The position numbers and the translations under genes are program-made. From an uncultured Verrucomicrobiae bacterium (lineage in GTDB: Bacteria; Verrucomicrobiota; Verrucomicrobiia; Chthoniobacterales; UBA10450), in NCBI GenBank assembly GCA_963756875.1, contig CAVWPA010000003.1:992001-1056000 (forward strand): 64,000 nt of DNA, in the 5' to 3' direction. Position 1 is the first letter of the stretch. Every line of letters starts with the position of its first letter. Positions 27,159-45,200 of the stretch are shown here, piece after piece. The notes beneath the pieces were generated by a model. The model saw nothing but the letters and a program-made list of their open reading frames with translations, had not been told where the DNA came from and searched no databases.

Positions 27159-30100
27159 TGAAATCGTGCGACTCGCTCCCAATGAGCCGCTCGTCCAATA
27201 GCGGTTTGATGTCGCGCGTTTTGATCAGCACGACGCCGTCGGAATTTTGCACTTCGCCTGTAATGAGCAAAAAAGCTTCCTCGGTAATGACCAGACGGAA
27301 TCGTTCGAACAAATCCGGATCAACAATGGCATTGGAAACACCGGTCTCGTCTTCGAGGCTGATGAAAACAAATCCTTTCGCGGTCCCGGGGCGTTGACGG
27401 CAAATTACATTTCCAGCGATCTGAACAGTTACGCCATGTTTCGCATGCGTGAGATCGGTCGCGCGCCAGATGTTGGACAACTTCTCGCGCAGCAATTTCA
27501 TCGGATGCGGCCCGGTCGTCAGGTTCATCGTTTCGTAATCCGCGCGCACACGTTCCGGGAGCGTCATCGGAAGAAGCGGCAATTTTCGCGTCCTGGGAGC
27601 GCACGCGCCCTCGCGTGCCACATTCGGCGCCTCGCCGAATGTACAACGAACATCCGAAAAGTCGTCCAAAGCTGAAGAGTTTCCGGCGAGGGCGCCGGAA
27701 ACAGCACGCGAGGCGCGTGCGCTCCCCGGACGATCCAGCAAATCGTCGTGCAGCGTCTTCTCCACTTTCCACATCGCCGCGCGGCGATGATCCGCAAAAC
27801 AATTGAGCGCGCCGAGTTCCGCGAGCGTTCGCAATTCTTCTCTTGAAAATCGAACGCGCCGCTTGAAATCTTCGAGCGAATCGAATCGCCGCTCCTCCCG
27901 TTGTCGAACAAGTTCATCGGCGCGGGCCTGATGCAATCCGTTTACCACGCAAAATCCGAGGCGGACGGTATCGTCGGAAACAACCGAGCAGCGCCATGCC
28001 GATTGTTGCACGCATACCGGCTGCACCTTGATTCCATGCCGGCGCGCATCCTTTACGATCGTGGCAGGTGTATAAAAACCCATCGGCTGATTATTGAGCA
28101 GGCTGACGTAAAACTCCGGGGCGCGATGCACTTTCAAATAGGCGCTCCCATAGGCCAGAATCGCGAAACTGATGGCGTGCGATTCCGGAAACCCGTAAAG
28201 GGCAAACGAGCTGATCGATTGAATAATCTTGTCGATCTTGTCGGGCGCGACCTCTTTCCGCTCCATCGCGGCGCGCAGTTTCAGGCTCACTTTGTTCATC
28301 CGCTCCTCCGATCGGTGAAAACTGAGCGCGCGCCGCAATTCTTCCGCTTCGTTTCCGGAGAAATCGGCCATGATCATGGCGATTTTCAGCATTTGTTCCT
28401 GGAATAACGGAACACCAAGGGTGCGGCCTAAGATCGGCTCCAATCGCGGATCGAAATAAGTCACCGGTTCGCGGCCGGCGCGCCGTGCCAGATAGGGATG
28501 CACCATGTCGCCCTGGATCGGTCCCGGCCGGATGATCGCCACTTCAATTACGACATCGTAAAAACATTTCGGTTTCATCCGTGGCAGCGTGGCCATTTGC
28601 GCGCGGCTCTCGATTTGAAAAACTCCGATCGTGTCGGCCTTCTGCATGATCCGGAATGTGGCTGCGTCGTCCTTGGGAATGTGAGCAAGGTCGAGAGGTC
28701 GCCCACGCTCGCGGCAAAGCTCAAATGCATCCTGCATGACCGACATCATGCCGAGGCCTAACAAATCGACTTTCACGATGCCCAGATCCTCGCAATCGTC
28801 CTTGTCCCATTGCGCAACCACGCGGCCAGGCATCGAGGCATTTTCCAGCGGCACGAACGAGCTCAATTTATTCTGGCAGATGATCATTCCGCCGGAATGC
28901 TGACCGAGATGCCGCGGCAATCCGTAAATGGAGCGATAGAGCCTGGCGAAAGCGGGCATGCGCGGATGCCCTTTTGGCAAACCGGCTTGTTCGATTTGCG
29001 ATTGGAGATCGAGCGTGTGGGGGAAATCGCCGTTTGCGAACAAATGCGAGAAGCGATCGAGAATGCCCGGCGAAAAATTCAGCGCCTTGCCGATTTCACG
29101 AGCGGCGCTTCGCCCGCGATAAGTGATTACGTTCGCCGTCATGGCCGCGCCATGTTTGCCGTAGCGGCGATAAATCTCCTGAATAACGCTTTCACGCCGG
29201 TCGCCGCTGGGAAGATCGAGATCGATATCGGGCCAGCCTTTGCGGCTCTCGTTTAAAAAACGTTCGAAAACGAGATGATTGCTCACCGGATCGACCGGCG
29301 TGATGCCGAGACAATAACAAACAGCGCTGTTCGCGGCGCTGCCACGGCCCTGCACCATGACGTTATGCTCGCGACAAAAATTGATGATGTCCCAGACAAT
29401 CAAAAAATATCCCGAGAAGCCGAGTTTCTGAATCAGTGCCAGTTCCTCTTCGATCTGGCGTTTCACCGCGGCACTAACCGCGGCGTACCGTTGCTGCGCG
29501 CCAAACCAGACGATCGTGCGCAGGAACGAATCCATGCTGTGACCCGCGGGCACGGGAAAATCGGGAAACTCGTAACCGATATTTTCGAGCGAAAATGTGA
29601 GCCGCTCGGCCACGCGCGCCGTGTTTTCGATCGCTTCCGGCAAATCGCGAAAGAGTTCTCGCATTTCGCGATCGCTCTTCAAATAGCGCTCGGCGTTTTG
29701 GGTCAATAGTTTGCCGGCGGCATCCAGGTGCGTGTGCTCGCGAATGCAGGTAAATACGTCGACCACTTCGCGTCCGGATGGCTTGGCATATTCCACGCCG
29801 TTCGTAGCCAGGATCGGCAATCGATGTGCACGGGCGAGATCGACCAGTTCGCGGTTTGCGCGTTCTTCGCCACGCACAAAATGCCGCTGGATTTCCACGA
29901 AAACATTTTCACGGCCAAAGGTGTCGATAAGAAGTTTGGCACCATCTGCGGATTTGTAGGGCGTTTCTGTGAAACGCCGCTCAAGGTTGGTGTCTGACAC
30001 AGACGCCCTACAATTTGCAAGCGATGCGTTGAAAAATGCGACCAGCCCTTCCGCGAATTGCGGCAGCTCCTTCCATTGCACGGCGCATTTTCCTTTCTCG

Positions 30101-30396
30101 CTCCGCAGATGCGCCTGGGTGAGCAGTTCGCACAAATTTTTGTAACCGGCGCGATTTTCGACCAGCACCGGCAAAACAGCGCCATCATCCATCGACAATT
30201 CGCAACCGATGATTGGCCGGACATTGCTCTCGCGCGCGGCGACCGAAAAACGTTGCAACCCGTAAACGCCATTGCGATCGAGCAAAGCCATCGCCGGCAT
30301 CTCCAGTCTGGCTGCGGTCTCGGCCAATTGTTCCGGAAACGAACCGCCGCGCAAAAAACTAAACGCGCTGCAGGCATGTAACTCGATGTAAGACAT
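27154..30396 (-). CDS. dnaE2: Error-prone DNA polymerase DnaE2 (ImuC)
   Basis: YIELHACSAFSFLRG, GRGSAANS, PDIDLD, FQIESRAQM, YGFPESHA, RQRPGTAKG, SHDFR tail. Confidence 0.97.
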   Translation of the reverse strand: MSYIELHACSAFSFLRGGSFPEQLAETAARLEMPAMALLDRNGVYGLQRFSVAARESNVRPIIGCELSMDDGAVLPVLVENRAGYKNLCELLTQAHLRSEKGKCAVQWKELPQFAEGLVAFFNASLANCRASVSDTNLERRFTETPYKSADGAKLLIDTFGRENVFVEIQRHFVRGEERANRELVDLARAHRLPILATNGVEYAKPSGREVVDVFTCIREHTHLDAAGKLLTQNAERYLKSDREMRELFRDLPEAIENTARVAERLTFSLENIGYEFPDFPVPAGHSMDSFLRTIVWFGAQQRYAAVSAAVKRQIEEELALIQKLGFSGYFLIVWDIINFCREHNVMVQGRGSAANSAVCYCLGITPVDPVSNHLVFERFLNESRKGWPDIDLDLPSGDRRESVIQEIYRRYGKHGAAMTANVITYRGRSAAREIGKALNFSPGILDRFSHLFANGDFPHTLDLQSQIEQAGLPKGHPRMPAFARLYRSIYGLPRHLGQHSGGMIICQNKLSSFVPLENASMPGRVVAQWDKDDCEDLGIVKVDLLGLGMMSVMQDAFELCRERGRPLDLAHIPKDDAATFRIMQKADTIGVFQIESRAQMATLPRMKPKCFYDVVIEVAIIRPGPIQGDMVHPYLARRAGREPVTYFDPRLEPILGRTLGVPLFQEQMLKIAMIMADFSGNEAEELRRALSFHRSEERMNKVSLKLRAAMERKEVAPDKIDKIIQSISSFALYGFPESHAISFAILAYGSAYLKVHRAPEFYVSLLNNQPMGFYTPATIVKDARRHGIKVQPVCVQQSAWRCSVVSDDTVRLGFCVVNGLHQARADELVRQREERRFDSLEDFKRRVRFSREELRTLAELGALNCFADHRRAAMWKVEKTLHDDLLDRPGSARASRAVSGALAGNSSALDDFSDVRCTFGEAPNVAREGACAPRTRKLPLLPMTLPERVRADYETMNLTTGPHPMKLLREKLSNIWRATDLTHAKHGVTVQIAGNVICRQRPGTAKGFVFISLEDETGVSNAIVDPDLFERFRLVITEEAFLLITGEVQNSDGVVLIKTRDIKPLLDERLIGSESHDFR
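27595..27726. repeat. GGGAGCGCACGCG palindromic element, in frame inside dnaE2
   Basis: 132 bp with arms nearly identical to the intergenic copy at 37464-37583. Confidence 0.9.
29954..30013. repeat. TTGTAGGGCGT...ACGCCCTACAA REP-like doublet, in frame inside the dnaE2 PHP region
   Basis: 60 bp, 11-bp inverted termini, two hairpins; encodes CRASVSDTNLERRFTETPYK. Confidence 0.88.
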
Positions 30397-30402
30397 GGGA
30401 GG

Positions 30403-30474
30403 CTGTAGCGGCGGTCTATGATCGTCGCTCGATATCAATGGTTGCGACCCCGAAAGCATTCGGGGCCGCTACAG
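30403..30474. repeat. REP-like element CTGTAGCGGC...GCCGCTACAG
   Basis: 10-bp inverted termini between imuB and dnaE2; inner CCCCGAAAGCATTCGGGG hairpin. Confidence 0.8.
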
Positions 30475-30482
30475 GTGGCTGG

Positions 30483-31607
30483 CTAATCATAAATCCCGTC
30501 GACCTTCCACGTTCCGTCGCTTTCATGAGCGCGAATCACTTCGCCATCCTCCAGTTGCAGGTCCCACTCGGCGCGCGCCCACGATTTTTCGTCCCACCAA
30601 TTGCCGGAAAGCGAATAAGGGCCTCGCTGGTTCGCGATGTTGCCGTTGACTTTCGCGCTCTGAAGAAAAGCGGGAATATTTTCCGAAATAAAAACCGACG
30701 CAGGGGCGGCTGATCGAAATCGGCGCAACGCTGCACCTTCCCTCACCGCCGTGCCACAGGACGTTCGCTTCTCCCTCTCTCCCGCTGGGAGAGACGGACG
30801 CGAAGCGCCAGTGAGGGTAAATGAGCGGGGTGGGGAGAGGGGAGGGTAAGGGCCATCAGTTCCATTCGCGTTCGCGCTCAAATTCCACATAAACGGTTCT
30901 ATCCGGAACGCGTCCGGCCGATGTGTTTCTTCCAAAACAGGCGTGCCCACCCGGTCCGCGCCAAGCAACGCGCTCAAACGCGCAAGTGTTTCATAGAGTC
31001 GATGTGGATTGCGCAACGACGTCTCGAACAATCCAAATTGCCGCGAGGCGGGCCGGATTGGCTGCGCGATTAACGCGACAGCAACGATCGGATGGTTCGC
31101 TTTGAAATTTTCCAGATGCGTCTGGAGCATTCGGAAAAGAAGATCGACATCATTGGTCGGCTCCGGAATTTTAAAAACGCGTTCGTAAATCTGCTTGTCC
31201 GTGAAAGCGATCCGCAGGGTCAGTTCCTTGCTGACGAGATAGATGCTGCTTAACCGCAACGCGAGCTGTTCCAAAAACCGCCGCAGCATAAAAAAGAGCG
31301 GCTCCGCCGTTTCGATCTCGTTTTCGAATTCGAAACTTTCCTCGAACGACTCCGGCGGTTGGACAAATTGAAGTAATCGAGTGGAGTGGCCATTGGCGCG
31401 TTCCCAAAGCCGGGCCGCTTCGGGGCCAAGTCGCGCACGAAGCTCCTCTTTATCCAGCGCAGCAAACTGGCCGAGCGTGTGAATCCCCCACTTGTGCAGG
31501 ATGCCGAGGATCTCTTCTGTAATTGCGCGTTGGCCTCCGGCTCGGAGAGCCATACGGTTCGGAAAGGCGTTGTCCCTTCTGGCCCTTCTTAAATTAGAGC
31601 GCTCCAT
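30483..31607 (-). CDS. imuB: ImuB-like protein, N-terminally truncated Y-family homolog
   Basis: WGIHTLGQFAAL HhH, QFGLF clamp-type motif, HRPD, GPY.LSGNWW...GIYD tail; upstream of dnaE2; start 31607 or 31553. Confidence 0.8.
   Translation of the reverse strand: MERSNLRRARRDNAFPNRMALRAGGQRAITEEILGILHKWGIHTLGQFAALDKEELRARLGPEAARLWERANGHSTRLLQFVQPPESFEESFEFENEIETAEPLFFMLRRFLEQLALRLSSIYLVSKELTLRIAFTDKQIYERVFKIPEPTNDVDLLFRMLQTHLENFKANHPIVAVALIAQPIRPASRQFGLFETSLRNPHRLYETLARLSALLGADRVGTPVLEETHRPDAFRIEPFMWNLSANANGTDGPYPPLSPPRSFTLTGASRPSLPAGEREKRTSCGTAVREGAALRRFRSAAPASVFISENIPAFLQSAKVNGNIANQRGPYSLSGNWWDEKSWARAEWDLQLEDGEVIRAHESDGTWKVDGIYD
30740..30852. repeat. CCCTCACC composite palindromic element, inside the imuB reading frame
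   Basis: Shares GGGAGAGACGGACGCG.AGCGCCAGTGAGGGTAAA with the intergenic copies at 45267 and 60411. Confidence 0.88.
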
Positions 31608-31636
31608 GCGCCCAAATTAAGCAAAGCAAGGAAATA

Positions 31637-31650
31637 TGTTCAAGCGAACA
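31637..31650. promoter_or_regulatory. LexA (SOS) box, Verrucomicrobia type TGTTC-N4-GAACA
   Basis: TGTTCAAGCGAACA about 30 bp upstream of imuB-dnaE2. Confidence 0.85.
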
Positions 31651-31685
31651 TTTCGGCCAGGGCAGCCGGAAATCTGGTTCCGCCG

Positions 31686-33632
31686 TTATTTTTGGCCAAG
31701 CAGCCTCGCTTTCACGTCGTCCGGGAGCGACGAGTTAGCGACCCAGGTTCTCGCGGCGTTCGAATCGGTGTTCAACCAGTTGCGAACGACGGCTTCGACC
31801 TGGCTATTGCGCATTCCTTCATTGCCAATGCTCTCTGCCCATTGCACCGCACTGGATGGATCGGACCTGGCGATGCGGCGCGCATACGCCGTGACTGCCG
31901 CGTCTCGCGAATCGCTTTGCGGCAATTCGCTTAACCAGGTGCCGGCGCCGTAAGTGTCGATTTCCGACCAGCGATTGATCAGGCTCTCAAAGGCGCGCTG
32001 CCGTGTTATGCCTTCGGGCAGGGTGAACGCCCATTTGCTGGCGGCCTGGGGATCGTTACCCGCCCACTGCCAGGTGACGGCGTTTACTGCCATTTGCTGC
32101 GCCGCCGTGGACAAGCGGGTGAGCATCTGTGCAGCTTGCGACGGATCCGTTTCCGCAACGGCCGCAAGAATGTTCGGCAAAGCGGCGTCACGGGACGCGC
32201 TGTCGGGCAAGTTACTTGCCCAGGCAAGTGCTGCCTGAGGATCGGCGCGCGCCCAATGTGCGGCAACATTCTGAAGTAAATTTTTGCGCCCGTCGTTGTC
32301 CGCCGTGTGCAGAGCGAAATCGGCAGCCGCCCGGGGATCGGTATCGCTCCATTGCGAAATAATGGTGTTGGTGGCGGCTTGTTCCGCAGCGCTTTGCGGA
32401 AGTTTTTGAACCCAGGCGAGGGCTGTCTGGAGATCACTGTTAGCCAGTTGCCAGGCAACCGAGTTTATCGCCGTCTCCCGCGATTTGCCCGGCGCCAACG
32501 AAAGCACGTAATCGGCGGCGGCCGAAGGGTCCGATCGCGCCCAGGTTTGCAACACATTACTGATTGCGCGCGTTTGCCCATCGCTTTTCGGCAATTCCTG
32601 AACCCAATCCATGGCCGCGCGTGCGTCTGTTTGCGCCCACTGACGAGCGACGTCGCCAATTGATTGTTCGCGAGCCGAACCAAACGGAAGCGACAGGGCT
32701 ATTGCCGCAGCTCTCTCCGGATCGCGATTGGCCCAACTGGAGATAACGCTTTGCAGGGCGCGATTGCGTTCCTTGCCGGCCGTAAGCGAGCTTGCCCACG
32801 TGAAGGCTGCTTCCGGGTCCTGCGCCGTCCAAGTTGCCGCAACAGCTTGCAGGGCGCTGTCGCGTCCGGCCCCCGGTGAAAGCCGGCTCGCCTGTTCGCC
32901 AGCAGCAAGAGGATCGCTCGCAGCCCAGCTGTTGAAGATCGACGAGTAAAGACTTTGCCGACTCCGAATTGGAATGTTCTGCAGGAGATTCAGCGCCGTT
33001 TGGGGATCTTTTTGCGCGATCGCGCCAATGACCGTCTGCATGGCCTGATCGTGCATCGGGCTCGGTGGCAGTTGTTTGACCCAGGCTAACGCGGCATTAG
33101 CATCGTTTTCGGCCCAGCCGCTCATTGCGCTGCTTACCGCGCGATTGCGCTCCGGTCCGGCCGGCATTTTTTGTGCGAAATTTACGGCATCGGTGGGATT
33201 AAATTCCGCCCACCGCGTCATCACGAGCGCGAGCAGAAGACCTTTGTCCTGCTGCTTGGGCACGCTCTGCGCAAGGTTCAAAACTTCCGCCAGGTTGCTC
33301 GCATCGACGGAGTCCACCAGTTTTGACAGCGTCGCGTAGATGTGACGGCTGAACGGATGAGCGAGCGCGGCCTGGATTGCCGAAACAATGTTTTCACTGG
33401 AAGCATCGCCCGGTTCTTTCGCTCGATTAGTTGAGTCGACCGCGCTGGTTGAAAGGCGCTTTTTGTGCTGCCCGGCTACCGCCTCAAATGAACCCTGAGA
33501 TTCTGTGTCAGAATTGACCGACGATTTGGAAGCGCGGGCGACCTTCAAGACAGGAAACGCGTAATGCCCGATCGCGATCCCAGTGAGAAAAGCGGCCGCT
33601 ACCGCAAGGACCGGCAATCGCATTCCCTTCAC
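31686..33632 (-). CDS. Membrane-anchored alpha-solenoid repeat protein
   Basis: N-terminal TM; many W-A-x-x-D-P-x-A-A-x-x-W repeats of about 28-30 aa. Confidence 0.8.
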   Translation of the reverse strand: MKGMRLPVLAVAAAFLTGIAIGHYAFPVLKVARASKSSVNSDTESQGSFEAVAGQHKKRLSTSAVDSTNRAKEPGDASSENIVSAIQAALAHPFSRHIYATLSKLVDSVDASNLAEVLNLAQSVPKQQDKGLLLALVMTRWAEFNPTDAVNFAQKMPAGPERNRAVSSAMSGWAENDANAALAWVKQLPPSPMHDQAMQTVIGAIAQKDPQTALNLLQNIPIRSRQSLYSSIFNSWAASDPLAAGEQASRLSPGAGRDSALQAVAATWTAQDPEAAFTWASSLTAGKERNRALQSVISSWANRDPERAAAIALSLPFGSAREQSIGDVARQWAQTDARAAMDWVQELPKSDGQTRAISNVLQTWARSDPSAAADYVLSLAPGKSRETAINSVAWQLANSDLQTALAWVQKLPQSAAEQAATNTIISQWSDTDPRAAADFALHTADNDGRKNLLQNVAAHWARADPQAALAWASNLPDSASRDAALPNILAAVAETDPSQAAQMLTRLSTAAQQMAVNAVTWQWAGNDPQAASKWAFTLPEGITRQRAFESLINRWSEIDTYGAGTWLSELPQSDSRDAAVTAYARRIARSDPSSAVQWAESIGNEGMRNSQVEAVVRNWLNTDSNAARTWVANSSLPDDVKARLLGQK

Positions 33633-33633
33633 G

Positions 33634-35617
33634 TTAGATAACTTCGACAGGACAGCCAGGTAGCGCGCTCAAAAATGCGCGGCCGTACGGCTTGGTCACG
33701 ATCCGGTTGTCGAGAATGACGATGATTCCACGGTCGGTTTTGGTGCGGATCAATCGGCCGACTCCCTGCCGAAGTTTCAGGACCGCTTCCGGCAGCGAAT
33801 ACTCGGTGAACGGATCGCCGCCGCGTTCCTGGATGAGCTCCAGTTTCGCCTCGATCAGCGGATGATCGGGCACGGCAAATGGAAGCCGCGTGATGATGAC
33901 ATTTGAGAGCGCCTCGCCGGGAACATCCACGCCCATCCAAAAACTGTCCGTGCCGAAAAGAACGCTTCGCGGCGTGGTTTTAAATTTTTCCAACAACTGC
34001 CCGCGCGGCATGCCGCCGCCCTGCACAAGAAGATTCATTTCCTTGCTCGCGAAAAAATTCTGCATTTGACCGGCCACCTGATGCATGTCGCGATAGCTTG
34101 TAAAAAGAACGAAAGCGCGACCGCCGGTCTCTTCGACAAAACGCGCGATCCAATGTTCCAATTCTTTTTGGTAATGACCGTCGCGCGGGTCGGGCATTTT
34201 TCGCACGACAAAAAGCTTCATCTGCTTTTGGAAATTGAAGGGACTGCCAAGCTGCAGCGGCTCGGCCTCGGTTGCGCCGACGCGCTCACGGAAATAGACG
34301 AGGTCGGCGCGCCCCACTGCCAGCGTTGCACTCGTCATGATGCAGCAGCAGTTCTCCCGGAAAAGCATCCGCCGCAGGACCGGAGCGAGATCGACCGGGA
34401 GCTGCGTTAAGAGAAAGGAATTGCGCCATCTTCCCCGTGCGTTCGACCCAATAGACGTTCTCGGGCTCGCTTTGCTCGAGAAAAATGGCGATCCCATTGC
34501 GTGCATCGCGAATTCGCCGGCCAAGGTCCTGTAGTTCGGCCTTCAGAAATTCGTCATTGGCAAGCTTCGCCACATCGGCCACGCGCATCTGCAGCGCCGC
34601 GAGGTCGCTGGTAATCGTGTCCGGAACGAAATCAACGTCGCGCACCCGGAACTCGCGCCCCTTTCGAAAGTCCGATCTCGAATCGATTGCTGCGAAGAAT
34701 TTATCGGCTTTATCGACCAGGTCCGCGGCCAGTCTCACGCCATTGGCGTCGCGCATGACCGTAAAGAGCCCTTTGCGGGTGCGCGCGTTGTAGAGACGCT
34801 GGATTGTCGATCGTAGACCGTATTGCGAAATGCCGATACCGATCTGGCGCGAGGCGACCTGCTCCACGGTGTGCGCTTCGTCGAAAATGATGAAGTCGTC
34901 CGGGAAAAGAAATCCACTTTCGCGCCCTTCCTGTTCGTCCGGACTGCCGAGCAGCATAAAAAGGAGCGTGTGATTCATCACAATTACGTCCGCTGCAAGA
35001 AGGCGTTTTCGCGCCTGCTGGTAGAAGCACCTCGGATTTTGCCCGCAGGTTTTTTGAGTGCAGATGTGGGCCTCGCTGCAAACTTGCGTCCACACTTTAG
35101 GGTCGGGCTCAATCGAAAGGTCGCTGAGGGAGCCGTCGCGAGTCGTGCCGGCCCATTCGGCGAGCCGATTCAGTTCGTTCTGCTCGGGGCCTGTGAAGAG
35201 TTCGTTCGATTGTTGCAGAGCACGCTCCAGCCGCCGGGGGCAAAGATAGTTCTGCCGGCCTTTCATCAGCGCCGCCTCGAACTCGTCCGGCAACGTCTTC
35301 TTCAAAATCGGGATGTCTTTATATAGAAGCTGCTCCTGGAGATTGATCGTGTGCGTCGAAACGATCGCTTTTTTGTGCTGGTCGATCGCGAACAGGATCG
35401 CCGGAACCAGGTAGGCAAGCGACTTGCCGACGCCGGTGCCTGCTTCGACGACCAGGTGCCGCCCTTCTTCCAGCGCGCGCGCCACCGCGACCGCCATTTC
35501 TTGTTGTTGGGGGCGGAACTCGAAGTTTTTCGCTTTCGAGAGCAACCCGTCGGCGGCGAAGATTGCGCGAACACGCTCCACAAAGTCGGTACCGAGATTA
35601 TTTTTGAGAGCGATCAT
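33634..35617 (-). CDS. DinG/YoaA family helicase, apparent frameshift near 34395
   Basis: EAGTGVGKS, KGRQNYLC, DEAH in one frame; TSATL, LFTSY, GVDVPG, QGVGRLIR in the other. Confidence 0.9.
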
Positions 35618-35623
35618 CGTCGC

Positions 35624-35769
35624 CGAAGCACCAAGCACCAATCTCCAAACCCCAGGGAAACTTCAATCACCAAAATCCAAACAAACTTGAAAAGTTGAAC
35701 CCACGCAGATTTCTGGAATTTGGAATTTGGAGTTTCCCTGGAGCTTGGTGCTTGGAGTTTGGTGCTTCG
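35624..35769. repeat. Inverted heptamer array (AGCACCA / TGGTGCT)
   Basis: agcacca-agcacca-atctcca-aacccca ... tggaatt-tggaatt-tggagtt...tggtgct. Confidence 0.85.
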
Positions 35770-37463: not shown

Positions 37464-37583
37464 TCCGGGGAGCGCACGCGCCCCCGCGTGCCCGTTGCGG
37501 CGCCTCGCCGCAATGTTCGCCGGGAAAAGTTCGCGATGGAGGGGGCGCCATCGCCGGCACGCGAGGCGCGTGCGCTCCCCGGA
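37464..37583. repeat. GGGAGCGCACGCG palindromic element (intergenic copy)
   Basis: TCCGGGGAGCGCACGCGCC...GGCGCGTGCGCTCCCCGGA. Confidence 0.9.
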
Positions 37584-38718: not shown

Positions 38719-38719
38719 G

Positions 38720-39088: not shown

Positions 39089-39091
39089 GCT

Positions 39092-39144
39092 GGTAGGGAC
39101 ATCGCGCTGCGCCGACCGGGACGCCGCAGCGCGACGTCCCTACC
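39092..39144. repeat. REP-like element GGTAGGGAC...GTCCCTACC
   Basis: Inverted termini shared with 27095-27158. Confidence 0.8.
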
Positions 39145-39196
39145 TGAGCATCCTGTTGGCTTGCCTGTACGGGCAAAGAGGTCTAAAGCATTGGCC

Positions 39197-39889: not shown

Positions 39890-39906
39890 CTGTCCAGCGC
39901 GTTGGC

Positions 39907-40311
39907 ATGAAGCTTAGCCGCACGAAAGATTTTAATTTCGGCTGGCTCATGGTGGTTCCCGCCATCGACGTGGTGTTCCTGTTCATTTTCTTTCTCCTGC
40001 TCAGCTCGAATTTTATTTTGCAGCCGGGAATCGCCGTTTCATTGCCTTTCTCACGCTTCACGCTCGGTCCGCAGCAGAACCAACAGATTATCAGCATCAC
40101 CGGCGGCGCAGTTCCGGCCATTTACTTTCGAGACCAGAAAATCACGCTCGCACAACTCGGACCGCTGCTTGACGCGGCCAGGCGCGAAAACCGGTCGGTG
40201 ATCATCAAGGCAGATCGCCTCACGCCGTACGAGTTGGTTGTAGCCGTGACCAACGCCGCGCTCGAACACGGGATCCCTTCCGTTGCCCTGGCCACTGCCC
40301 CGCCAAAATGA
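39907..40311 (+). CDS. ExbD/TolR family protein
   Basis: PAIDVVFLFIFFLL, IIKAD. Confidence 0.9.
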   Translation: MKLSRTKDFNFGWLMVVPAIDVVFLFIFFLLLSSNFILQPGIAVSLPFSRFTLGPQQNQQIISITGGAVPAIYFRDQKITLAQLGPLLDAARRENRSVIIKADRLTPYELVVAVTNAALEHGIPSVALATAPPK

Positions 40312-41087
40312 CTGGGTCGATGTTGGCGCCGGCAGAGCAATCGCTTGTTTTCAACTGGGACTCGCCGGGGGGTCGTAACCTGGCTGTTGCCGGATTTCTG
40401 GCCGTCTCGCTGGTGGCACACGCCGCCTGCTTTTACATTTTTCAGGTTGTGTATCCGCCGACTGCCGCGCTTTTGCCGCCGCCTGCACGGGTCAGCTTGA
40501 TTACGGCCGATTCCGAAGAAGGCCGGACGCTGTTGCGTTGGATTGACGCGGAAGATCCGGCGCTGGCATTTACGACGAGACGCCCTCCGGACGCCAGGGG
40601 TTACGTTTTGCCGAGGCTGGAGCACGTTCCTTCTTATTTCGCAACGCAACCCGCGTTAAAGAGGGTTCCGCCGCTGCCTGTCGATCTGAGCATGCCCGAT
40701 TCGCAACCGCCTGGCGCGGTGCCGGTGTATCGACGGCCGCCTCCGCCGTCCGTTCGCGCAATCCCGACCAGCGTTGTGTTCTCGAAAGAAGTCGCAGAAC
40801 TCGGCGCACCAGTGTTGCCGCCGGGAAAATTTAGCGCGTCCACTGGTGAAGCTCCGCAAAACCTGCAGTTTCGCGTGGGGATAAGCAGCCGGGGCGAAGT
40901 CCGATATTGTTTTCCAATGAATTCTTCTGGTGACTCGGCGCTGGACGAACAGGCCAGGCGCTATCTCGCGCTTTGCCGTTTCCCGGCGAGAGCGGCGACA
41001 GAATCTCTTATCTGGGGAATCGCGAGCGTGGAGTGGGGGAACGACGTCGCCCGCCCGGAGCCAACATCCAGCCCGTCCGCGCCGTGA
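40308..41087 (+). CDS. TonB-like energy transducer
   Basis: SLVAH TM motif, Pro-rich region, SSGDSALDEQA. Confidence 0.7.
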   Translation: MTGSMLAPAEQSLVFNWDSPGGRNLAVAGFLAVSLVAHAACFYIFQVVYPPTAALLPPPARVSLITADSEEGRTLLRWIDAEDPALAFTTRRPPDARGYVLPRLEHVPSYFATQPALKRVPPLPVDLSMPDSQPPGAVPVYRRPPPPSVRAIPTSVVFSKEVAELGAPVLPPGKFSASTGEAPQNLQFRVGISSRGEVRYCFPMNSSGDSALDEQARRYLALCRFPARAATESLIWGIASVEWGNDVARPEPTSSPSAP

Positions 41088-41323
41088 TCCGCGTTACACT
41101 GGCCGCGCTGGTCACAATTTATCTGCTCCTTTTTCTTGCCACGATTTTCCTTCTTTGGATAGTGGGTGAGTGGAACCGTCGCCGGCGTGAGCGGCGTGCT
41201 TTGCGTTATCGGCTGCGGTGCGTGATTTGCGCGTTTGAATTTGAAGATCGAACAGCGACGTTGCTTCCACGTTGTCCGCGTTGCGGCAGCTTGAACGAAC
41301 GATTTAGATTGGAGCAAATTTAA
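41084..41323 (+). CDS. Small membrane-anchored zinc-ribbon protein
   Basis: GTGA coupling, TM helix, CVIC...CPRCGS. Confidence 0.75.
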   Translation: MIRVTLAALVTIYLLLFLATIFLLWIVGEWNRRRRERRALRYRLRCVICAFEFEDRTATLLPRCPRCGSLNERFRLEQI

Positions 41324-41326
41324 GAC

Positions 41327-42505
41327 ATGGGAATGTGGATTGGCCGTAATCGAAAGGCGCGCGTCACCTACGGGTTCGACGAAATCGCGCTTGTACCGGG
41401 TCGGGTCACGATTAACCCGAACGAAGTGGACATCACTTTTCATATGCCGCGCAAAGATGCAGAGCCGCTGGCGCTGAAGATCCCGGTGCTGGCCAGCGCC
41501 ATGGATGGCGTTGTCGACGTGCGCTTTGCCATCGCAATGAGCAAGCTGGGCGGGCTCGCTGTTCTGAATCTCGAAGGCGTGCAAACCCGCTACAAAAATC
41601 CACAGGAGGTCCTGCAAAAAATTGTCGAGGCGGACAAATCCGAAATCACGGCGTTGTTGCAAAAAATCTACCAGGAGCCGGTGCAGGAAGATTTGATCGC
41701 CGCGCGCATTCGCCAGATCAAGGATGGCGGCGCCATTGCCGCGGTCAGTTCCATTCCCCAACGCGCAGCGGAATTTGGAGCCATCGCCCAGGAAGCGGGC
41801 GCGGATGTTTTTGTCGTTCAAAGTACTGTTTCGACCGTGCGCCATATTTCTTCGGAATATCAATCGCTCGATCTGGAAAAATTCTGCCGCGAGATGCGTA
41901 TTCCAGTGATCGTCGGCAATGCGGTGGGCTACGACGTCACGCTGGACATCATGGAATGCGGCCCGGCCGCGGTCTTGATCGGTGTCGGACCCGGCGCGGC
42001 ATGCACTTCGCGCGGAGTGCTCGGGCTGGGCGTGCCGCAAGTGACAGCCACTGTCGATTGTGCGGCCGCGCGCGATGCTTATTTCAAGAAAACCGCGCGT
42101 TACGTGCCGATTATCACCGATGGTGGCATGAGCAAGGGCGGCGACGTTTGCAAAGCGCTCGCCTGCGGCTCGGATGCTGTCATGGTTGGGAGTGCGTTTG
42201 CCCGCACGCAGGAAGCTCCCGGTCGCGGTTATCATTGGGGCATGGCCACCCCGCACGTCAATCTTCCTCGAGGCACGCGCATCAAAGTCGGTACGACCGG
42301 CTCGCTCAAACAAATTTTGTTCGGACCGGCCGAGGTCGATGACGGCAGTCAAAATCTTGTCGGCGCCGTGACCACTTGCATGGGAAACGTTGGCGCGCGG
42401 ACCCTGGCCGAATTTCAGCAAACCGAAATCATCATTGCCCCTTCCATCCGGACCGAAGGGAAGCTTTTTCAGTCTGTCCAAAACGTCGGCATGGGCACAA
42501 GCTGA
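41327..42505 (+). CDS. GuaB3-type IMP dehydrogenase family protein
   Basis: YGFDEIALVP, SAMDGVVD, GVGPGAACTSR, DGG, HWGMATP; no CBS domain. Confidence 0.9.
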   Translation: MGMWIGRNRKARVTYGFDEIALVPGRVTINPNEVDITFHMPRKDAEPLALKIPVLASAMDGVVDVRFAIAMSKLGGLAVLNLEGVQTRYKNPQEVLQKIVEADKSEITALLQKIYQEPVQEDLIAARIRQIKDGGAIAAVSSIPQRAAEFGAIAQEAGADVFVVQSTVSTVRHISSEYQSLDLEKFCREMRIPVIVGNAVGYDVTLDIMECGPAAVLIGVGPGAACTSRGVLGLGVPQVTATVDCAAARDAYFKKTARYVPIITDGGMSKGGDVCKALACGSDAVMVGSAFARTQEAPGRGYHWGMATPHVNLPRGTRIKVGTTGSLKQILFGPAEVDDGSQNLVGAVTTCMGNVGARTLAEFQQTEIIIAPSIRTEGKLFQSVQNVGMGTS

Positions 42506-42541
42506 GGCCTTAACGCTCCCACGATTTAACGCTTCAACGCC

Positions 42542-43792
42542 ATGAACAACGATCGTCGCGTCGTCATTACAGGCCTCGGTGTGATCACGCCTGTGGGCAA
42601 CGATTTGGCGACTTTTTGGAAAAGTTTGACCGAGGGCAAAAGCGGCATCCGACGAATTCAGGCTTTCGATACGACCGGGTACGACTGTCAGATTGGCGGC
42701 GAGGTCCGCGATTTCGAGCCAAAGAATTTCTTCAAGAACCCAAAGGACGTCCGTCGCACCGATCGTTTTGCCCAACTCGCCATGGCCGCGGCCAAGATGT
42801 CGATCCAGGATAGCGGGGTCGACCTGGAACGCGTCAATCGCGACCGGTTCGGCGTGCTGGTCAGCAGCGGAATCGGTGGATTGAAAACACTCGAGGACCA
42901 ATTCAGCACCTTGATGAACAAAGGGCCCGGTCGCGTCTCCGCGTTCACTATCCCAATGCTCATCAGCAACATGGCGAGTGGGCTGATCTCGATGGAGTTT
43001 GGATTACGCGGCCCCAACCTGTGCATCGTCACCGCCTGCGCGACGTCCAACAACGCCATTGGCGAATCATGGCGCATGATCAAGTTTGGCGATGCGGATA
43101 TTTTCGTCGCAGGCGGCTCGGAAGCGGCCATCGTCGAACTGGGTCTGGCCGGCTTTTCTGCCATGAAGGCACTCAGCCGGCGCAACGACCAACCGGAACG
43201 CGCTTCGCGTCCCTTCGATCGCGATCGCGACGGCTTCATCATGAGCGAGGGAGCGGGTGTTGCGATTGTCGAAGAGCTCGAACATGCGAAGAAGCGCGGC
43301 GCAAAAATTTACTGTGAACTGGCAGGTTACGGACTTTCTGCCGACGCGTATCACATGACCGCGCCGCCGGAAGATGGCGAAGGAGCGGCTCGCGCCATGA
43401 AGCTGGCACTCGATCACGCCCACCTTTCGCCCGAGCAGGTTGATTACATCAACGCGCACGCCACTTCCACTGGCCTTGGCGACATCAGTGAGACCCGTGC
43501 CATCAAAATGGTGTTCGGAGATCAGCCGAAGAATGCCTCCATCAGCTCGACCAAATCGATGACCGGCCACTTGTTAGGCGGCGCCGGCGCCGTGGAAATG
43601 GCCGCCTGCGCCATGGCGATCCGTGACGGCATCATCCCGCCAACGATCAATCTCGAAAATCCGGATCCGCTCTGCGATCTCGATTACACGGCCAACAAGG
43701 CGAAGGAAAAAAAGGTCCGCGTCGCCATGAACAACTCATTCGGTTTCGGCGGCCACAACGCCACCCTCGTCCTCACCGCGTTTGAGGATTAG
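42542..43792 (+). CDS. fabF: 3-oxoacyl-ACP synthase II
   Basis: VVITGLG, TACAT, NAHATST, KSMTGHLLG, NSFGFGGHN. Confidence 0.96.
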   Translation: MNNDRRVVITGLGVITPVGNDLATFWKSLTEGKSGIRRIQAFDTTGYDCQIGGEVRDFEPKNFFKNPKDVRRTDRFAQLAMAAAKMSIQDSGVDLERVNRDRFGVLVSSGIGGLKTLEDQFSTLMNKGPGRVSAFTIPMLISNMASGLISMEFGLRGPNLCIVTACATSNNAIGESWRMIKFGDADIFVAGGSEAAIVELGLAGFSAMKALSRRNDQPERASRPFDRDRDGFIMSEGAGVAIVEELEHAKKRGAKIYCELAGYGLSADAYHMTAPPEDGEGAARAMKLALDHAHLSPEQVDYINAHATSTGLGDISETRAIKMVFGDQPKNASISSTKSMTGHLLGGAGAVEMAACAMAIRDGIIPPTINLENPDPLCDLDYTANKAKEKKVRVAMNNSFGFGGHNATLVLTAFED

Positions 43793-43812
43793 TAGCGCTG
43801 CCCGAAGATTTC

Positions 43813-43928
43813 CCCGCGAATCACGCTAATTCACGCGAATCGGAGAAGAGAGCTTTCTTAAACTCCCCGAATCTCGCAGGGTGTTGAACCGCCGGTTCTT
43901 GGACCTTACATTCGCGTTCATTCGCGGG
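43813..43928. repeat. CGCGAAT-type inverted short-unit repeat
   Basis: cccgcgaat-cacgctaatt-cacgcgaat ... attcgcgttc-attcgcggg. Confidence 0.75.
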
Positions 43929-43955
43929 CTAAAATGGGTCCGATCGATTATTGCC

Positions 43956-45200
43956 TCACCGTTCGGGGTTCACCGGGAAGTGTTTGTTCTTGAGACGCTC
44001 GGGGACGCGCTTCGTTTGTTCCGCCTCAATCTTTTCCGTTGCCGCGTTTAACGCATCGTACGCTTCGCGGCTTTTTTTGGCTCGGCACATGTAAGCCGTG
44101 GCGTGCCCGAGCGGAATCCGCGCTTCGGGCAAACCGACGAATTCAACAGCCTGTTGCGTGGCAATCGCCAGTGGCAACGCTTCCGAGTCGGCCAGGCCGA
44201 TATCTTCGCTGGCAAAGATCACGATCCTTCGCGCGATGAAACGGAAATCCTCACCGGCGTGCAGCATCTTCGCCAACCAATACATCGCGCTCTCTTCATC
44301 GGATGCGCGCATGCCTTTGATGAAAGCGCTGATCGTGTCGTAATGCGCGTCGCCGGCACGATCGTAAACGACGGCTTTTTGCTGAATGCTTTCCTCGGCA
44401 ACGGCCAACGTGAAATGGATCACTCCAGAATCCGCTGGAGGGACGCGCTCCGTCGCGTCCTTTTGCCTTTGAGAAGGCTTGGACGACACGGAGGTCGTCC
44501 CTCCAGTTGGCGGTGTGGTGAGCACCCCAATCTCTAGTGCGTTCAAACATTTGCGCGCGTCGCCGTCGCTTAGTTTGGCCAGGTGGCGACGAGCATCTTT
44601 GTCCATGCGGACGTTGTAATTTCCGAGTCCACGCTCTTTATCGGCCAAAGCGCGATCGATCAATTGTCCCAGCTGCTCAACCCGAAGCGGTTCGAGCTGG
44701 AAAACCTGAGAGCGGGAGACCAGCGGGCTGTTGACGTAAAAGAACGGATTGTAAGTGGTCGCGCCGATTAATCTCAGATTTCCGCTTTCCACGTCTGGTA
44801 GAAGAATGTCCTGCTGCGCCTTGTTGAAATGATGGATCTCATCAATGAACAAAATGGTTTTTTGCCCGGACGTGCGAAGCCGGTTCGTTGCCGCGGCGAT
44901 CGCGCGGCGCATTTCAGCGACATTGCTTTCCACGCCGCTCAGACGCACGAATTTCGCGTGCGTCATATCGGCAATGATGTGGGCCAGCGTCGTTTTCCCC
45001 GTGCCGGGCGGGCCGGATAAAATTACCGAAGGGAGACGATCAGCCTCGATCGCGCGTCGCAGCAATTTTCCCGGCGCCAGAATATGTTCCTGCCCTGCAA
45101 ACTCATCGAGCGAACGAGGGCGCATGCGGGTCGCCAGCGGGGCGCCGGCGTTTGTGCCTCCGCGATCGACATTTTCTTCCTCGTTGAAAAGGTCGTGCAC
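43956..45200 (-). CDS. rarA: Replication-associated recombination protein A (MgsA)
   Basis: PLATRMRP, GPPGTGKTT, DEIH, GDAR, HYDTISAFIK, ASEDIGLAD. Confidence 0.93.
   Translation of the reverse strand: MHDLFNEEENVDRGGTNAGAPLATRMRPRSLDEFAGQEHILAPGKLLRRAIEADRLPSVILSGPPGTGKTTLAHIIADMTHAKFVRLSGVESNVAEMRRAIAAATNRLRTSGQKTILFIDEIHHFNKAQQDILLPDVESGNLRLIGATTYNPFFYVNSPLVSRSQVFQLEPLRVEQLGQLIDRALADKERGLGNYNVRMDKDARRHLAKLSDGDARKCLNALEIGVLTTPPTGGTTSVSSKPSQRQKDATERVPPADSGVIHFTLAVAEESIQQKAVVYDRAGDAHYDTISAFIKGMRASDEESAMYWLAKMLHAGEDFRFIARRIVIFASEDIGLADSEALPLAIATQQAVEFVGLPEARIPLGHATAYMCRAKKSREAYDALNAATEKIEAEQTKRVPERLKNKHFPVNPER
44435..44506. repeat. CTGGAGGGACG...CGTCCCTCCAG REP-like doublet, in frame inside rarA
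   Basis: 72 bp, 11-bp inverted termini, two hairpins; encodes about GGTTSVSSKPSQRQKDATERVPP. Confidence 0.88.

What the first reader, a model, noticed from the sequence alone, without database searches (positions are those of the whole stretch)
27595..44506. Palindromic elements from four families inserted in frame into DNA-repair genes (dnaE2 twice, imuB, rarA)
Seen: dnaE2 has a 60-bp TGTAG..CTACA doublet (29954-30013) and a 132-bp GGGAGCGCACGCG element (27595-27726) whose sister copy is intergenic at 37464-37583. imuB has a CCCTCACC composite (30740-30852) with intergenic sisters at 45267 and 60411. rarA has a 72-bp CTGGAGGGACG doublet (44435-44506). All keep the frame open and add about 20-44 aa between conserved motifs. 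Established: coding insertions of palindromes are known for Rickettsia palindromic elements, and GTAG-type REPs are handled by HUH RAYT/TnpA-REP enzymes. Inference: several families reach coding DNA here, and the four internal insertions I noticed among about 55 genes are all in SOS/replication-stress genes. That suggests ssDNA- or SOS-linked targeting, tolerant linkers, or a co-opted role in mRNA structure or linker diversification.
Basis: partly seen in the sequence, partly recalled or inferred. Interest (0 to 1): 0.82.

Follow-up and report, generated by a model that had tools for sequence, protein, structure and literature searches.

The report
Mobile DNA hairpins inside repair genes
Short mobile palindromic DNA elements have landed in frame inside several DNA-repair genes of a soil bacterium, adding floppy loops to the proteins; this kind of thing was reported in 2013, but here the enzyme that moves them also sits in frame inside essential genes.

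Summary
Sites are empty in 12 of 21 RarA and 17 of 19 ImuB relatives, and DnaE2 of the three order-level relatives has neither insert.

Three are REP/REPIN-type hairpin doublets with cognate RAYT transposases in this Chthoniobacterales (Udaeobacter-like) genome. The imuB element is a different, weakly palindromic composite.

Genome-wide I find 63 internal in-frame elements in 57 genes. Ten hosts are replication or repair genes, against 1 of 127 length-filtered control genes (Fisher p=3.7e-5). About 80% of hosts are other long enzymes.

The inserts encode disordered, Ala/Ser/Pro/Arg/Gly-rich loops. The most likely cause is frequent insertion filtered by tolerance. SOS or ssDNA targeting is not shown.

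The pattern, including DnaE2, UvrA and a verrucomicrobium, was published by Di Nocera et al. 2013 (PMC3733652). This scan has also noted in-frame REPs on other DNA.

New here: different REP families fill the same rarA loop (41 of 73 genomes parsed). The dnaE2 132-bp element is the two arms of a RAYT unit. That unit sits whole and in frame inside MetH, RecG, AlaRS, ThrRS and CarB in many genomes.

The parts
27154..30459 (-). dnaE2 (error-prone DNA polymerase III alpha, 1101 aa), host of two inserts
   Evidence: Pfam PHP, DNA_pol3_alpha, finger, HHH_6 and OB domains. The ORF is uninterrupted.
27595..27726 (.). E1: 132-bp arms-only (non-autonomous) derivative of a RAYT unit. It adds residues about 912-956 between the HhH and OB domains of DnaE2.
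   Evidence: Fold z -9.75. Its ends match the left arm (49 nt, 96%) and the right arm (25 nt, 96%) that flank the RAYT core at G000 C3:1631560-1632300 and in MetH. The family has 53 loci. The site is short or empty in several orthologs.
29954..30013 (.). E2: 60-bp GTAG-headed REP doublet. It adds residues about 150-169 in the PHP region of DnaE2.
   Evidence: Sequence. Fold z -4.28. 20 loci in the genome. The ortholog alignment shows a length-variable site.
30483..31607 (-). imuB-like gene (374 aa). It has only the C-terminal half of a Y-family polymerase plus a C-terminal extension.
   Evidence: Pfam IMS_C. NCBIfam Pol IV models match only their positions about 190-360. Family-level orthologs are also about 330-370 aa.
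30740..30863 (.). E3: composite CCCTCACC.../...GTGAGGG element with an inner 8-bp hairpin. It adds about 38 aa (residues about 252-290) to the ImuB-like protein.
   Evidence: Repeats D1 and I1. The segment 30768-30863 matches 6 intergenic loci. It is absent in 17 of 19 orthologs, and a shorter version is present in 2. The fold is not significant, z -0.75.
43956..45275 (-). rarA / mgsA (replication-associated recombination protein A, 439 aa)
   Evidence: Pfam AAA, AAA_assoc_2 and MgsA_C.
44435..44506 (.). E4: 72-bp GGAG-headed REP doublet. It adds 24 aa (residues about 258-281) in a loop of the RarA lid domain.
   Evidence: Fold z -7.04. The site is empty in 12 of 21 orthologs. In the AlphaFold2 model residues 258-282 have pLDDT below 50. 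The RAYT at G000 C1:672335-672598 is flanked by the same GGAGGGACG-type hairpins.
37464..37583 (.). Intergenic sister copy of E1
   Evidence: Repeats D5, D6 and I17. Fold z -7.93. It lies between my gene calls.
45267..45430 (.). Intergenic sister of E3, upstream of rarA, joined to a GTAG-like hairpin
   Evidence: Repeats D1, D13, I2 and I3. BLAST family.
60411..60560 (.). Second intergenic sister of E3
   Evidence: Repeats I1-I3. It lies between my gene calls 59239-60240 and 60763-61401.

Best explanation
The four elements are copies of dispersed, non-autonomous palindromic elements of a REP-rich Chthoniobacterales genome.

What each element is:
- E1, E2 and E4 are REP/REPIN-type doublets of the kind handled by RAYT (HUH Y1) transposases.
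- E1 is literally the two arms of one RAYT unit with the gene missing.
- E3 belongs to another, MITE-like family.

How they come to be where they are:
- The elements insert often and at many places (inferred).
- Copies that break a frame, bring a stop (TAG in one frame of GTAG) or disturb a fold are lost (inferred).
- What remains are stop-free, in-frame copies in permissive surface loops and linkers. There they are translated as short, disordered, mildly basic Ala/Ser/Pro/Arg/Gly-rich segments.

Why repair genes are over-represented:
- Long, modular, low-abundance enzymes that act on nucleic acids offer the most such sites and are under the weakest selection against them.
- These include DNA repair and replication proteins, tRNA synthetases and RNA-modification enzymes.
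- This makes DnaE2, ImuB, RarA, UvrA, UvrB, MutS and MutL frequent hosts without any gene-specific targeting.
For: They are insertions:
- RarA site empty in 12 of 21 relatives; ImuB site empty in 17 of 19.
- Both DnaE2 sites vary in length, and the three order-level orthologs carry no insert.
- Intergenic sisters exist.

They belong to REP/RAYT systems:
- The genome has 6 Y1_Tnp matches.
- Each stand-alone RAYT is flanked by its own hairpin family, including the E4 type. E1 equals the arms of the RAYT unit.
- HUH and Tyr motifs are kept in all 19 aligned RAYTs.

A selection filter is visible:
- Among repeat intervals of at least 35 nt, 102 lie inside genes, 102 at gene edges and 244 in intergenic DNA, although 82.6% of the genome is coding by my calls.
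- 0 of 9 scored GTAG heads lie in the frame that would read TAG.
- Insert peptides are 55% A/S/P/R/G against 36% in the proteome, and 9.7% L/I/F/Y/W/M against 26%. 42 of 63 are net positive.
- The RarA insert has pLDDT below 50 between well-modelled flanks.

Hosts:
- Host genes are longer, median 566 against 398 aa, p=1e-6.
- Only 10 (12 with SMC and FtsK) of 57 hosts are DNA genes. 11 more are tRNA synthetases or RNA-processing and RNA-modification enzymes.

Hot spot without a fixed junction:
- The rarA loop is filled in 41 of 73 parsed genomes by at least 5 element types. Junctions shift by 0-9 nt.
Against: - The enrichment for replication and repair genes is strong: 10 of 57 against 1 of 127 controls, p=3.7e-5. 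The binomial P is 2e-4 to 0.014 for assumed background shares of 4.5-8%. Length alone (1.4-fold) does not explain it.
- I could not measure expression or disorder genome-wide, so 'tolerance' is inferred, not shown.
- Coding score per codon differs only slightly between hosts and other genes (0.170 against 0.178, p=0.036).
A pure random-insertion model does not predict this.
- No RAYT was found for E2 or E3. The genome is 87.6% complete.
- The functional classes were assigned by me from Pfam and NCBIfam names. 36 of 127 controls had no Pfam hit at 1e-18.
Confidence: 0.6

Rival explanations
1. Targeted insertion. RAYT-mediated integration prefers these genes or sites, for instance because of ssDNA exposure, local hairpins or SOS-linked replication stress.
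For: - Repair and replication genes are enriched among hosts.
- The same rarA loop and the same two DnaE2 sites are hit repeatedly by different families in different genera.
- UvrA carries 4 elements.
- The same bias was reported across phyla, and its authors judged it hard to see as fortuitous (PMC3733652).
Against: - 45 of 57 hosts have no link to DNA metabolism or SOS.
- Junction positions at rarA differ by 0-9 nt.
- Empty sites show no hairpin: fold energies are -0.2 to -6 kcal/mol.
- Several hosts (MutS, MutL, DnaX, SMC, LigD) are not SOS genes by general knowledge.
- No mechanism is known by which a transposase would sense gene function.
Confidence: 0.12
2. Mutator hitch-hiking. Insertions that slightly impair repair proteins raise the mutation or recombination rate, and they are carried to fixation with the adaptive mutations they help to create. 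This is the speculation of Di Nocera et al. 2013.
For: - It explains why MMR (MutS, MutL), NER (UvrA, UvrB) and error-prone polymerase genes stand out.
- It was proposed in print (PMC3733652).
Against: - Inserts sit in loops modelled as disordered and leave the ORFs open on both sides, with family domains or ortholog-conserved sequence flanking them, which suggests little functional damage.
- It does not explain tRNA synthetases, RNA-modification enzymes and cofactor enzymes as hosts.
- I measured no mutation-rate signal.
Confidence: 0.12
3. Co-opted function. The inserts are kept because they do something, for example mRNA hairpins that tune expression of repair genes, or basic flexible loops that aid nucleic-acid binding.
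For: - Insert peptides are mildly basic: mean net charge +1.3, with 42 of 63 positive.
- 23 of 57 hosts act on DNA or RNA.
- The hairpins are strong.
- GGTTS-type inserts are shared by several genomes at the rarA site.
Against: - Filled and empty states are intermixed among close relatives, and insert sequences differ entirely between genera.
- Inserts resemble each genome's own repeat family rather than a conserved peptide.
Confidence: 0.08
4. These are not insertions. They are lineage-specific linkers that happen to be palindromic, or assembly artefacts of a metagenome-assembled genome.
For: The genome is a 3-contig assembly of 87.6% completeness. A DinG-like gene in the window is split by a frameshift.
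Against: - Intergenic sister copies exist.
- Relatives have empty sites.
- The same kind of insert is seen in dozens of independently assembled genomes.
Confidence: 0.02

Closest known systems
Intragenic GTAG/CGTC REPs in replication and repair genes (Di Nocera, De Gregorio, Rocco 2013, BMC Genomics 14:522, PMC3733652; passages read)
   Same: - REP singles and dimers lie inside ORFs and encode about 20-30 aa.
[quoted passage not shown] - Tolerance in flexible linkers, and a possible mutator effect, were both discussed there.
   Different: - This is another order (Chthoniobacterales, Udaeobacter-like).
- RarA and ImuB as hosts are not in the passages I read. Their supplementary table was not opened.
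- Added here: a control-based enrichment test, hot-spot recurrence over 73 genomes, and the link of one family to a RAYT that is itself embedded in frame.
Rickettsia palindromic elements, RPE (Ogata et al. 2000 Science; recalled, and cited in PMC3184786 and PMC3733652)
   Same: Selfish palindromic repeats inserted in frame in protein-coding genes. They add a few tens of residues at tolerated sites without destroying the protein.
   Different: - Different phylum and sequences.
- RPEs have no known cognate transposase. Here RAYTs flank or adjoin the families.
- No sequence comparison with RPEs was made here.
REPIN-RAYT / REPtron systems (Bertels and Rainey 2011, PMC3116915, search listing only; Ton-Hoang 2012, PMC3333891, search listing only; Quentin 2018, PMC6006769, passages read)
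   Same: Hairpins with a conserved head, inverted doublets, and a single or low-copy Y1 HUH transposase flanked by its own repeats. Several families and RAYTs coexist in one genome.
   Different: - A sizeable share of copies is intragenic and in frame.
- One RAYT lineage has its arms inside its own reading frame, and it is found whole inside host genes.
Inteins (as an analogy for the embedded RAYT only)
   Same: A selfish protein-coding element kept in frame inside conserved housekeeping and replication or repair genes. This protects it from loss by imprecise deletion.
   Different: No Hint or splicing domain was found in the 17 host ORFs scanned. Nothing suggests that the insert is removed from the protein.

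Membership tests
REP/REPIN elements mobilised by RAYT | Short imperfect palindrome with a conserved GTAG-like head | tested here: met
   E2 has a TTGTAGGG head. E4 has a CTGGAGGG head (GGAG variant). E1 has a GGGGAGC head before the hairpin GCACGCG-CCTC-GCGTGC. E3 does not have one.
REP/REPIN elements mobilised by RAYT | Two inverted units forming a larger hairpin (doublet / REPIN) | tested here: met
   Fold z -9.75 (E1), -4.28 (E2) and -7.04 (E4). 0 of 200 shuffles fold as well in each case. E3 has z -0.75, so the feature is not met for E3.
REP/REPIN elements mobilised by RAYT | Many dispersed copies, mostly extragenic | tested here: met
   E1 has 53 loci, 32 of them intergenic. E2 has 20 loci, 13 intergenic. 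The feature is only weakly met for E4 (6 loci, 3 intergenic) and E3 (6 loci, 5 intergenic).
REP/REPIN elements mobilised by RAYT | Cognate RAYT gene flanked by the same repeats (REPtron) | tested here: inconclusive
   Met for E1: its arms flank the RAYT cores at C3:1631734 and in MetH. Met for E4: the RAYT at C1:672335 is flanked by GGAGGGACG hairpins. No RAYT was found next to E2- or E3-type repeats among the 6 Y1_Tnp matches. The genome is 87.6% complete.
REP/REPIN elements mobilised by RAYT | RAYT with HUH motif and catalytic Tyr (Y-x-x-x-N-P) | tested here: met
   MP[DN]HVH and Y[IV]xxNP are kept in all 19 aligned copies. Pfam Y1_Tnp scores are above the cut-off. NCBIfam REP_Tyr_transpos scores 72.8 bits, just under its cut-off of 80.
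REP/REPIN elements mobilised by RAYT | Actual mobilisation of the repeats by the RAYT | not testable with these tools
   This needs biochemistry or genetics.
Intragenic REPs of replication/repair genes (Di Nocera 2013) | REP copy wholly inside a real ORF, frame kept, in a DNA synthesis or repair gene | tested here: met
   The ORFs are open. Family domains lie on both sides in dnaE2 and rarA; the imuB-like gene has a family match only upstream of the insert. Hosts are DnaE2, the ImuB-like protein and RarA. Genome-wide hosts also include UvrA, UvrB, MutS, MutL, DnaX, LigD and a PolB-like protein.
Rickettsia palindromic elements (RPE) | Sequence relationship to RPE families | not tested
   No RPE sequence was compared. 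The resemblance is functional only (in-frame palindromic insert).
MITE (for E3) | Terminal inverted repeats plus target-site duplication | tested here: inconclusive
   CCCTCAC...GTGAGGG termini are visible. The overall fold is not significant. Target-site duplication was not examined.
Intein (for the embedded RAYT) | Hint / protein-splicing domain | tested here: not met
   Pfam at E<=1e-6 on 17 host ORFs gives host domains and Y1_Tnp only. NCBIfam on the MetH ORF lists host-enzyme and related family models plus REP_Tyr_transpos, and no intein or Hint model.

The most novel reading that the evidence does not exclude
In Chthoniobacterales one RAYT lineage has become 'reading-frame compatible'. 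Its arms are stop-free and are translated, and the whole unit (arm, transposase, arm; about 215 aa) lives in frame inside essential or repair proteins: MetH, RecG, AlaRS, ThrRS, Val/Ile-type tRNA synthetase and CarB.

On this reading the transposase is made as an internal domain of the host protein. It cannot be lost without killing the host gene, which makes it an intein-like refuge without splicing.

Its arms-only offspring, such as the dnaE2 132-bp element, then seed the in-frame inserts seen in repair genes.

Evidence:
- 18 of 26 matches in 31 genomes lie in open frames of at least 525 aa. The hosts were identified.
- 1383 database proteins of 379-2000 aa match at E<=1e-10. By my hand count the best 120 are 84 MetH, 19 ThrRS, 12 AlaRS and 5 HrpB-type helicases.
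- Catalytic motifs are kept in all 19 aligned copies.
- dN/dS of the RAYT part is about 0.17 in RecG. In MetH dN is 0.166 with dS saturated.
- In G003, G016 and G004 the left arm of the RecG-embedded RAYT gives the same peptide, or nearly so, as that genome's DnaE2 inserts.

I found no paper describing this. Quentin 2018 set 'unexpectedly long proteins' aside as fusions or errors.
Probability: 0.5. Interest if true: 0.8.

Novelty: new member of a known kind. Interest (0 to 1): 0.55.

Why it matters
The finding as given repeats, in a new and ecologically dominant group of soil bacteria, a published but unexplained pattern: palindromic repeats sit in frame in replication and repair genes.

This genome family gives unusually good material to settle why that happens:
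- Many related genomes carry filled and empty states at the same loops.
- Several coexisting repeat families can be compared.
- The cognate transposases are identifiable.

If the side observation holds, it shows a way for a transposase to persist vertically by hiding as a domain of essential enzymes. It would also mean that many 'long' MetH, RecG and tRNA-synthetase entries in databases are real mosaics and not annotation errors.

Tried and rejected
Steps that led nowhere:
- A 12-mer repeat census timed out. When rerun it was far too permissive, with 17,542 intervals. I replaced it with 14-mers and then with CDS-versus-intergenic BLAST.
- One Pfam batch exceeded the residue limit. I split it into.
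- Sequencing runs: no RNA holder is listed, and the six DNA holders have word shares of at most 0.07. Nothing was laid, so there is no statement on expression or population polymorphism.
- The careful RarA tree did not finish. The quick IQ-TREE tree is poorly resolved (5 of 64 inner branches starred). I therefore claim only that the outgroup is empty and that several gains or losses are forced, not a number of events.
- RecG was not found in the window's own genome with the G017 RecG query. Only the RAYT parts and a distant helicase matched. Whether this genome once had RecG::RAYT is open.
- This genome has no earlier notes in the scan.

Readings considered and rejected:
- Ancient linkers. Empty sites and intergenic sisters speak against this.
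- Assembly artefact. The same architecture appears in many independent assemblies.
- Intein. No Hint domain was found.
- SOS-specific targeting. The host list is too broad.


Full report
**Where the window lies.** The window is G000:C3:992001-1056000 of a 2.69-Mb, 3-contig, 56.8% G+C genome. The titles of the closest RarA loci place it in Verrucomicrobiota, order Chthoniobacterales. Its neighbours are soil metagenome-assembled genomes labelled Candidatus Udaeobacter.

**The host genes.**
- dnaE2 is 27154-30459(-), 1101 aa, with PHP, Pol III alpha, finger, HhH and OB domains.
- rarA is 43956-45275(-), 439 aa.
- The ORF called imuB is 30483-31607(-), 374 aa. It matches only the C-terminal half (model positions about 190-360) of Y-family polymerase models. 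Family-level orthologs are equally short, with open frames of about 330-370 aa. Order-level orthologs have frames of 490-550 aa.

All four elements are at the stated coordinates.
- Three are strong hairpin doublets when folded as single-stranded DNA: E1 z -9.75, E2 z -4.28 and E4 z -7.04. None of 200 shuffles folds as well.
- E3 is a composite with CCCTCAC/GTGAGGG ends and one 8-bp inner hairpin. As a whole it is not significantly structured (z -0.75). Its stated length of 113 bp is not a multiple of three, so its borders are approximate.
- Family sizes in the genome, as loci and including the query, are 53 (E1), 20 (E2), 6 (E3) and 6 (E4). Respectively 32, 13, 5 and 3 of these are intergenic.
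- The named sisters at 37464, 45267 and 60411 are real and lie between my gene calls.

**They are insertions.** I fetched orthologs from 30 relatives and aligned them.
- RarA: 12 of 21 orthologs have a 7-8-residue loop where the window has 24 extra residues.
- ImuB: 17 of 19 orthologs lack the segment. Two (G008, G012) have a version 18 aa shorter, so the window's copy looks nested.
- DnaE2: both sites (residues about 150-169 and 912-956) vary in length. The three order-level orthologs (57-58% identical) and some family members are short there. Others carry inserts of up to about 190 aa.
- In several relatives the two DnaE2 sites carry near-identical peptides. In G003, for example, GSTGRWPVASGGSPDA...AACAPQN appears at both sites. 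The same element family therefore entered one gene twice.
- Rows from the unpublished genomes G002, G007 and G014 are in these alignments. No conclusion depends on them alone.

**What the elements are.** The genome has six Y1_Tnp (RAYT-type) matches. Their flanks are as follows.
- The RAYT at C3:12137 sits in arrays of CTGTAGAGGCAGGCGTGTCGCCTGC doublets.
- The one at C2:136900 sits between CTGTAGCCACCGGCC doublets.
- The one at C1:672335 sits between GGAGGGACG hairpins, the E4 type.
- The one at C3:1385666 sits between TGGAGGGCGCC hairpins.
- The copy at C3:1631734 has the GGGGAGCGCACGCG arms inside the two ends of its own reading frame (GSARASRA... and ...AREARALP).
- E1 matches that unit's left arm (49 nt, 96%) and right arm (25 nt, 96%) and lacks the core. 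It is the non-autonomous, arms-only form.
- I found no RAYT next to E2- or E3-type repeats. The genome is 87.6% complete.

**Genome-wide census.** I called genes with a codon-usage model of my own: 2221 genes and 82.6% coding. I then looked for segments of confident genes that meet these conditions:
- they match at least two intergenic loci;
- they lie at least 90 nt from both gene ends;
- both flanks have positive coding scores.

This gives 63 elements in 57 host genes. The dnaE2 132-bp element narrowly failed the flank filter, but its gene is in the list through E2.

By NCBIfam and Pfam names the hosts are:
- MutS, MutL, UvrA (4 elements), UvrB, DnaX, a PolB-like protein, LigD, DnaE2, the ImuB-like protein and RarA. 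That is 10 replication or repair genes.
- SMC (2 elements) and FtsK.
- 11 tRNA synthetases or RNA-processing and RNA-modification enzymes: AlaRS, LeuRS, ThrRS, RNase R, TilS, Tgt, TsaD, RimO, a MiaB-like protein, RsmE and RlmI.
- 34 others, including MetH, ThiC, Dxr, IspG, PdxA, UbiD, TrpA, ArgJ, GGT, FadB and a PurL-like protein with 3 elements.

**Control and enrichment.**
- As a control I took every confident gene of at least 250 aa in 14 randomly placed 20-kb blocks outside the window, 127 genes in all.
- I scanned them with Pfam at E<=1e-18. One is a recombination gene (phage-integrase family). 36 had no hit.
- Fisher's test for 10 of 57 against 1 of 127 gives p=3.7e-5. With SMC and FtsK added (12 of 57) it gives 3.2e-6.
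- If 4.5-8% of long genes are replication or repair genes, the binomial P of 10 or more is 2e-4 to 0.014. That range is my estimate from general knowledge.
However, 45 of 57 hosts are not DNA genes, and the DNA hosts are not specifically SOS genes.

**Signs of a tolerance filter.**
- Repeat intervals of at least 35 nt number 102 inside genes, 102 at gene edges and 244 in intergenic DNA. The genome is 82.6% coding.
- Host genes are longer, median 566 against 398 aa, p=1e-6. Their coding score per codon is slightly lower, 0.170 against 0.178, p=0.036.
- The 63 insert peptides are 55% Ala/Ser/Pro/Arg/Gly, against 36% in the proteome. They are 9.7% Leu/Ile/Phe/Tyr/Trp/Met, against 26%. 42 are net positive and 12 net negative.
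- An AlphaFold2 model of RarA, built on a 22-sequence alignment, has mean pLDDT 70.9. Residues 258-282, the insert, have pLDDT below 50 and no secondary structure. They lie between a helix and a strand of the lid domain that are well modelled.
- None of 9 scored GTAG heads in genes lies in the frame that would read TAG. 8 lie in the GTA|G frame.

**A hot spot.**
- In 101 RarA loci (21 from relatives and 80 from the genome collection), my pattern parsed 73. Of these, 32 have the short loop and 41 carry 20-42 extra residues.
- The DNA shows these to be REP doublets of at least five kinds: CTGTAGCCGG...CCGGCTACAG, AAGTAGCGCGACC..., ACTGTAGCGGCGGTC..., CTGGAGGGACG... and CCGTGGCATCGG.... Two copies have a further element nested inside.
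- Junctions differ by 0-9 nt, and all kinds are read in the same frame.
- The order-level outgroup is empty. On a quick, weakly resolved tree, filled and empty states are intermixed, and well-supported branches force at least 3 changes of the empty state.

**Prior knowledge.**
- They named UvrABCD, RecBCD, Pol I, DNA ligase and DnaE2.
- The highest intragenic GTAG count was in the verrucomicrobium Opitutus terrae, where both uvrA genes were hit twice.
- They weighed flexible-linker neutrality against a mutator speculation.
- Delihas (2011, PMC3184786; passages read) reviews in-frame repeats, including Rickettsia RPEs.
- The finding is thus a new instance of a known kind.
- This scan has also noted in-frame REPs in other genomes. 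One of those notes led me to Quentin et al. 2018.

**What seems new.** MetH of this genome (C2:23183-27799(-), 1538 aa) contains a whole unit in frame: arm, RAYT, arm, about 215 aa. It lies between the homocysteine and pterin domains.

I searched 30 relatives with that 216-aa segment.
- It gives 26 matches in 16 of 31 genomes, G000 included.
- 18 of the matches lie in open frames of at least 525 aa.
- Pfam on the 17 non-G000 frames shows these hosts: MetH (G017); AlaRS (G004, and G007, which is unpublished); RecG at one site in 7 genomes, two of them from other families; a Val/Ile-type tRNA synthetase (2); CarB (4); and a cation-efflux protein (1).

In the 5.8-billion-protein collection, 1383 proteins of 379-2000 aa match at E<=1e-10.
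- By my hand count the best 120 are 84 MetH, 19 ThrRS, 12 AlaRS and 5 HrpB-type helicases.
- Some carry double names from JGI, such as 'alanyl-tRNA synthetase/REP element-mobilizing transposase RayT'.

Signs of constraint on the embedded RAYT:
- The HUH and Tyr motifs are kept in all 19 aligned copies.
- dN/dS of the RAYT part is 0.17 in RecG (G017 against G016), against 0.05-0.125 for the host parts.
- In MetH (G000 against G017) dN is 0.166 with dS saturated.
- The arms show lower dS and ratios of 0.36-0.46, as expected if the DNA itself is constrained.
- In G003, G016 and G004 the left-arm peptide of the RecG-embedded RAYT matches or nearly matches that genome's DnaE2 insert.

I found no paper on this with four searches. 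Quentin et al. 2018 (PMC6006769) state that unexpectedly long proteins were discarded as fusions or annotation errors. Bertels et al. 2017 (PMC5581495) contains none of the words fusion, fused or in-frame.

**Verdict.**
- The kind is already published, so I rate the finding itself as a new member of a known kind.
- The embedded-RAYT lifestyle is the boldest reading that the data allow, and it deserves its own follow-up.

Noticed in passing
G000 C2:23183-27799 (outside the window); relatives L237-L253: A complete RAYT unit (arm, Y1 transposase, arm; about 215 aa) lies in frame inside MetH. Homologous units lie in frame in RecG (7 genomes), AlaRS, CarB, a Val/Ile-type tRNA synthetase and MetH of relatives. 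1383 long database proteins match.
   Followed up: partly
window 33634-35641 (-): A DinG/XPD-like helicase is split into two overlapping ORFs. ORF 34286-35641 carries DEAD and DEAD_2. ORF 33634-34524 carries Helicase_C_2. This points to a frameshift or an assembly error. No repeat-like segment was flagged there.
   Followed up: no
window 35624-35769 and 63600-63714; many loci genome-wide: There are long palindromes whose arms are runs of 6-7-nt units (CCAAGCA/CCAAATC type and AACGCC type). They form further abundant families. Related copies lie in frame in RimO, ThiC, Dxr, Tgt and others.
   Followed up: partly
G000 C3:700925-705364 (outside the window): UvrA is 1479 aa and carries 4 internal repeat elements of at least two families.
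   Followed up: partly
window 30483-31607 and upstream 31686-33632: The imuB-like gene lacks the N-terminal polymerase half, here and throughout the family. The gene upstream is a 648-aa repeat protein with no NCBIfam match, not imuA.
   Followed up: partly
rarA loop, loci L068-L230: All five REP types found at the rarA site are read in the same frame (GTA-GCN or GGA-GGG). 8 of 9 GTAG heads inside G000 genes use that frame. This may reflect in-place replacement or a peptide constraint. It is unexplained.
   Followed up: no
window 30397-30433 and 31521-31588: Repeat-like segments lie within the first 20-70 nt of the longest dnaE2 and imuB ORFs. The true starts are probably downstream, for example at MSYIELH in DnaE2.
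   Followed up: no
G000 C3:1631611-1632279: The 'stand-alone' RAYT ORF (226 aa) is followed by a single TAA, and then the same frame stays open to 547 aa. It may sit at the 5' end of the next gene.
   Followed up: no
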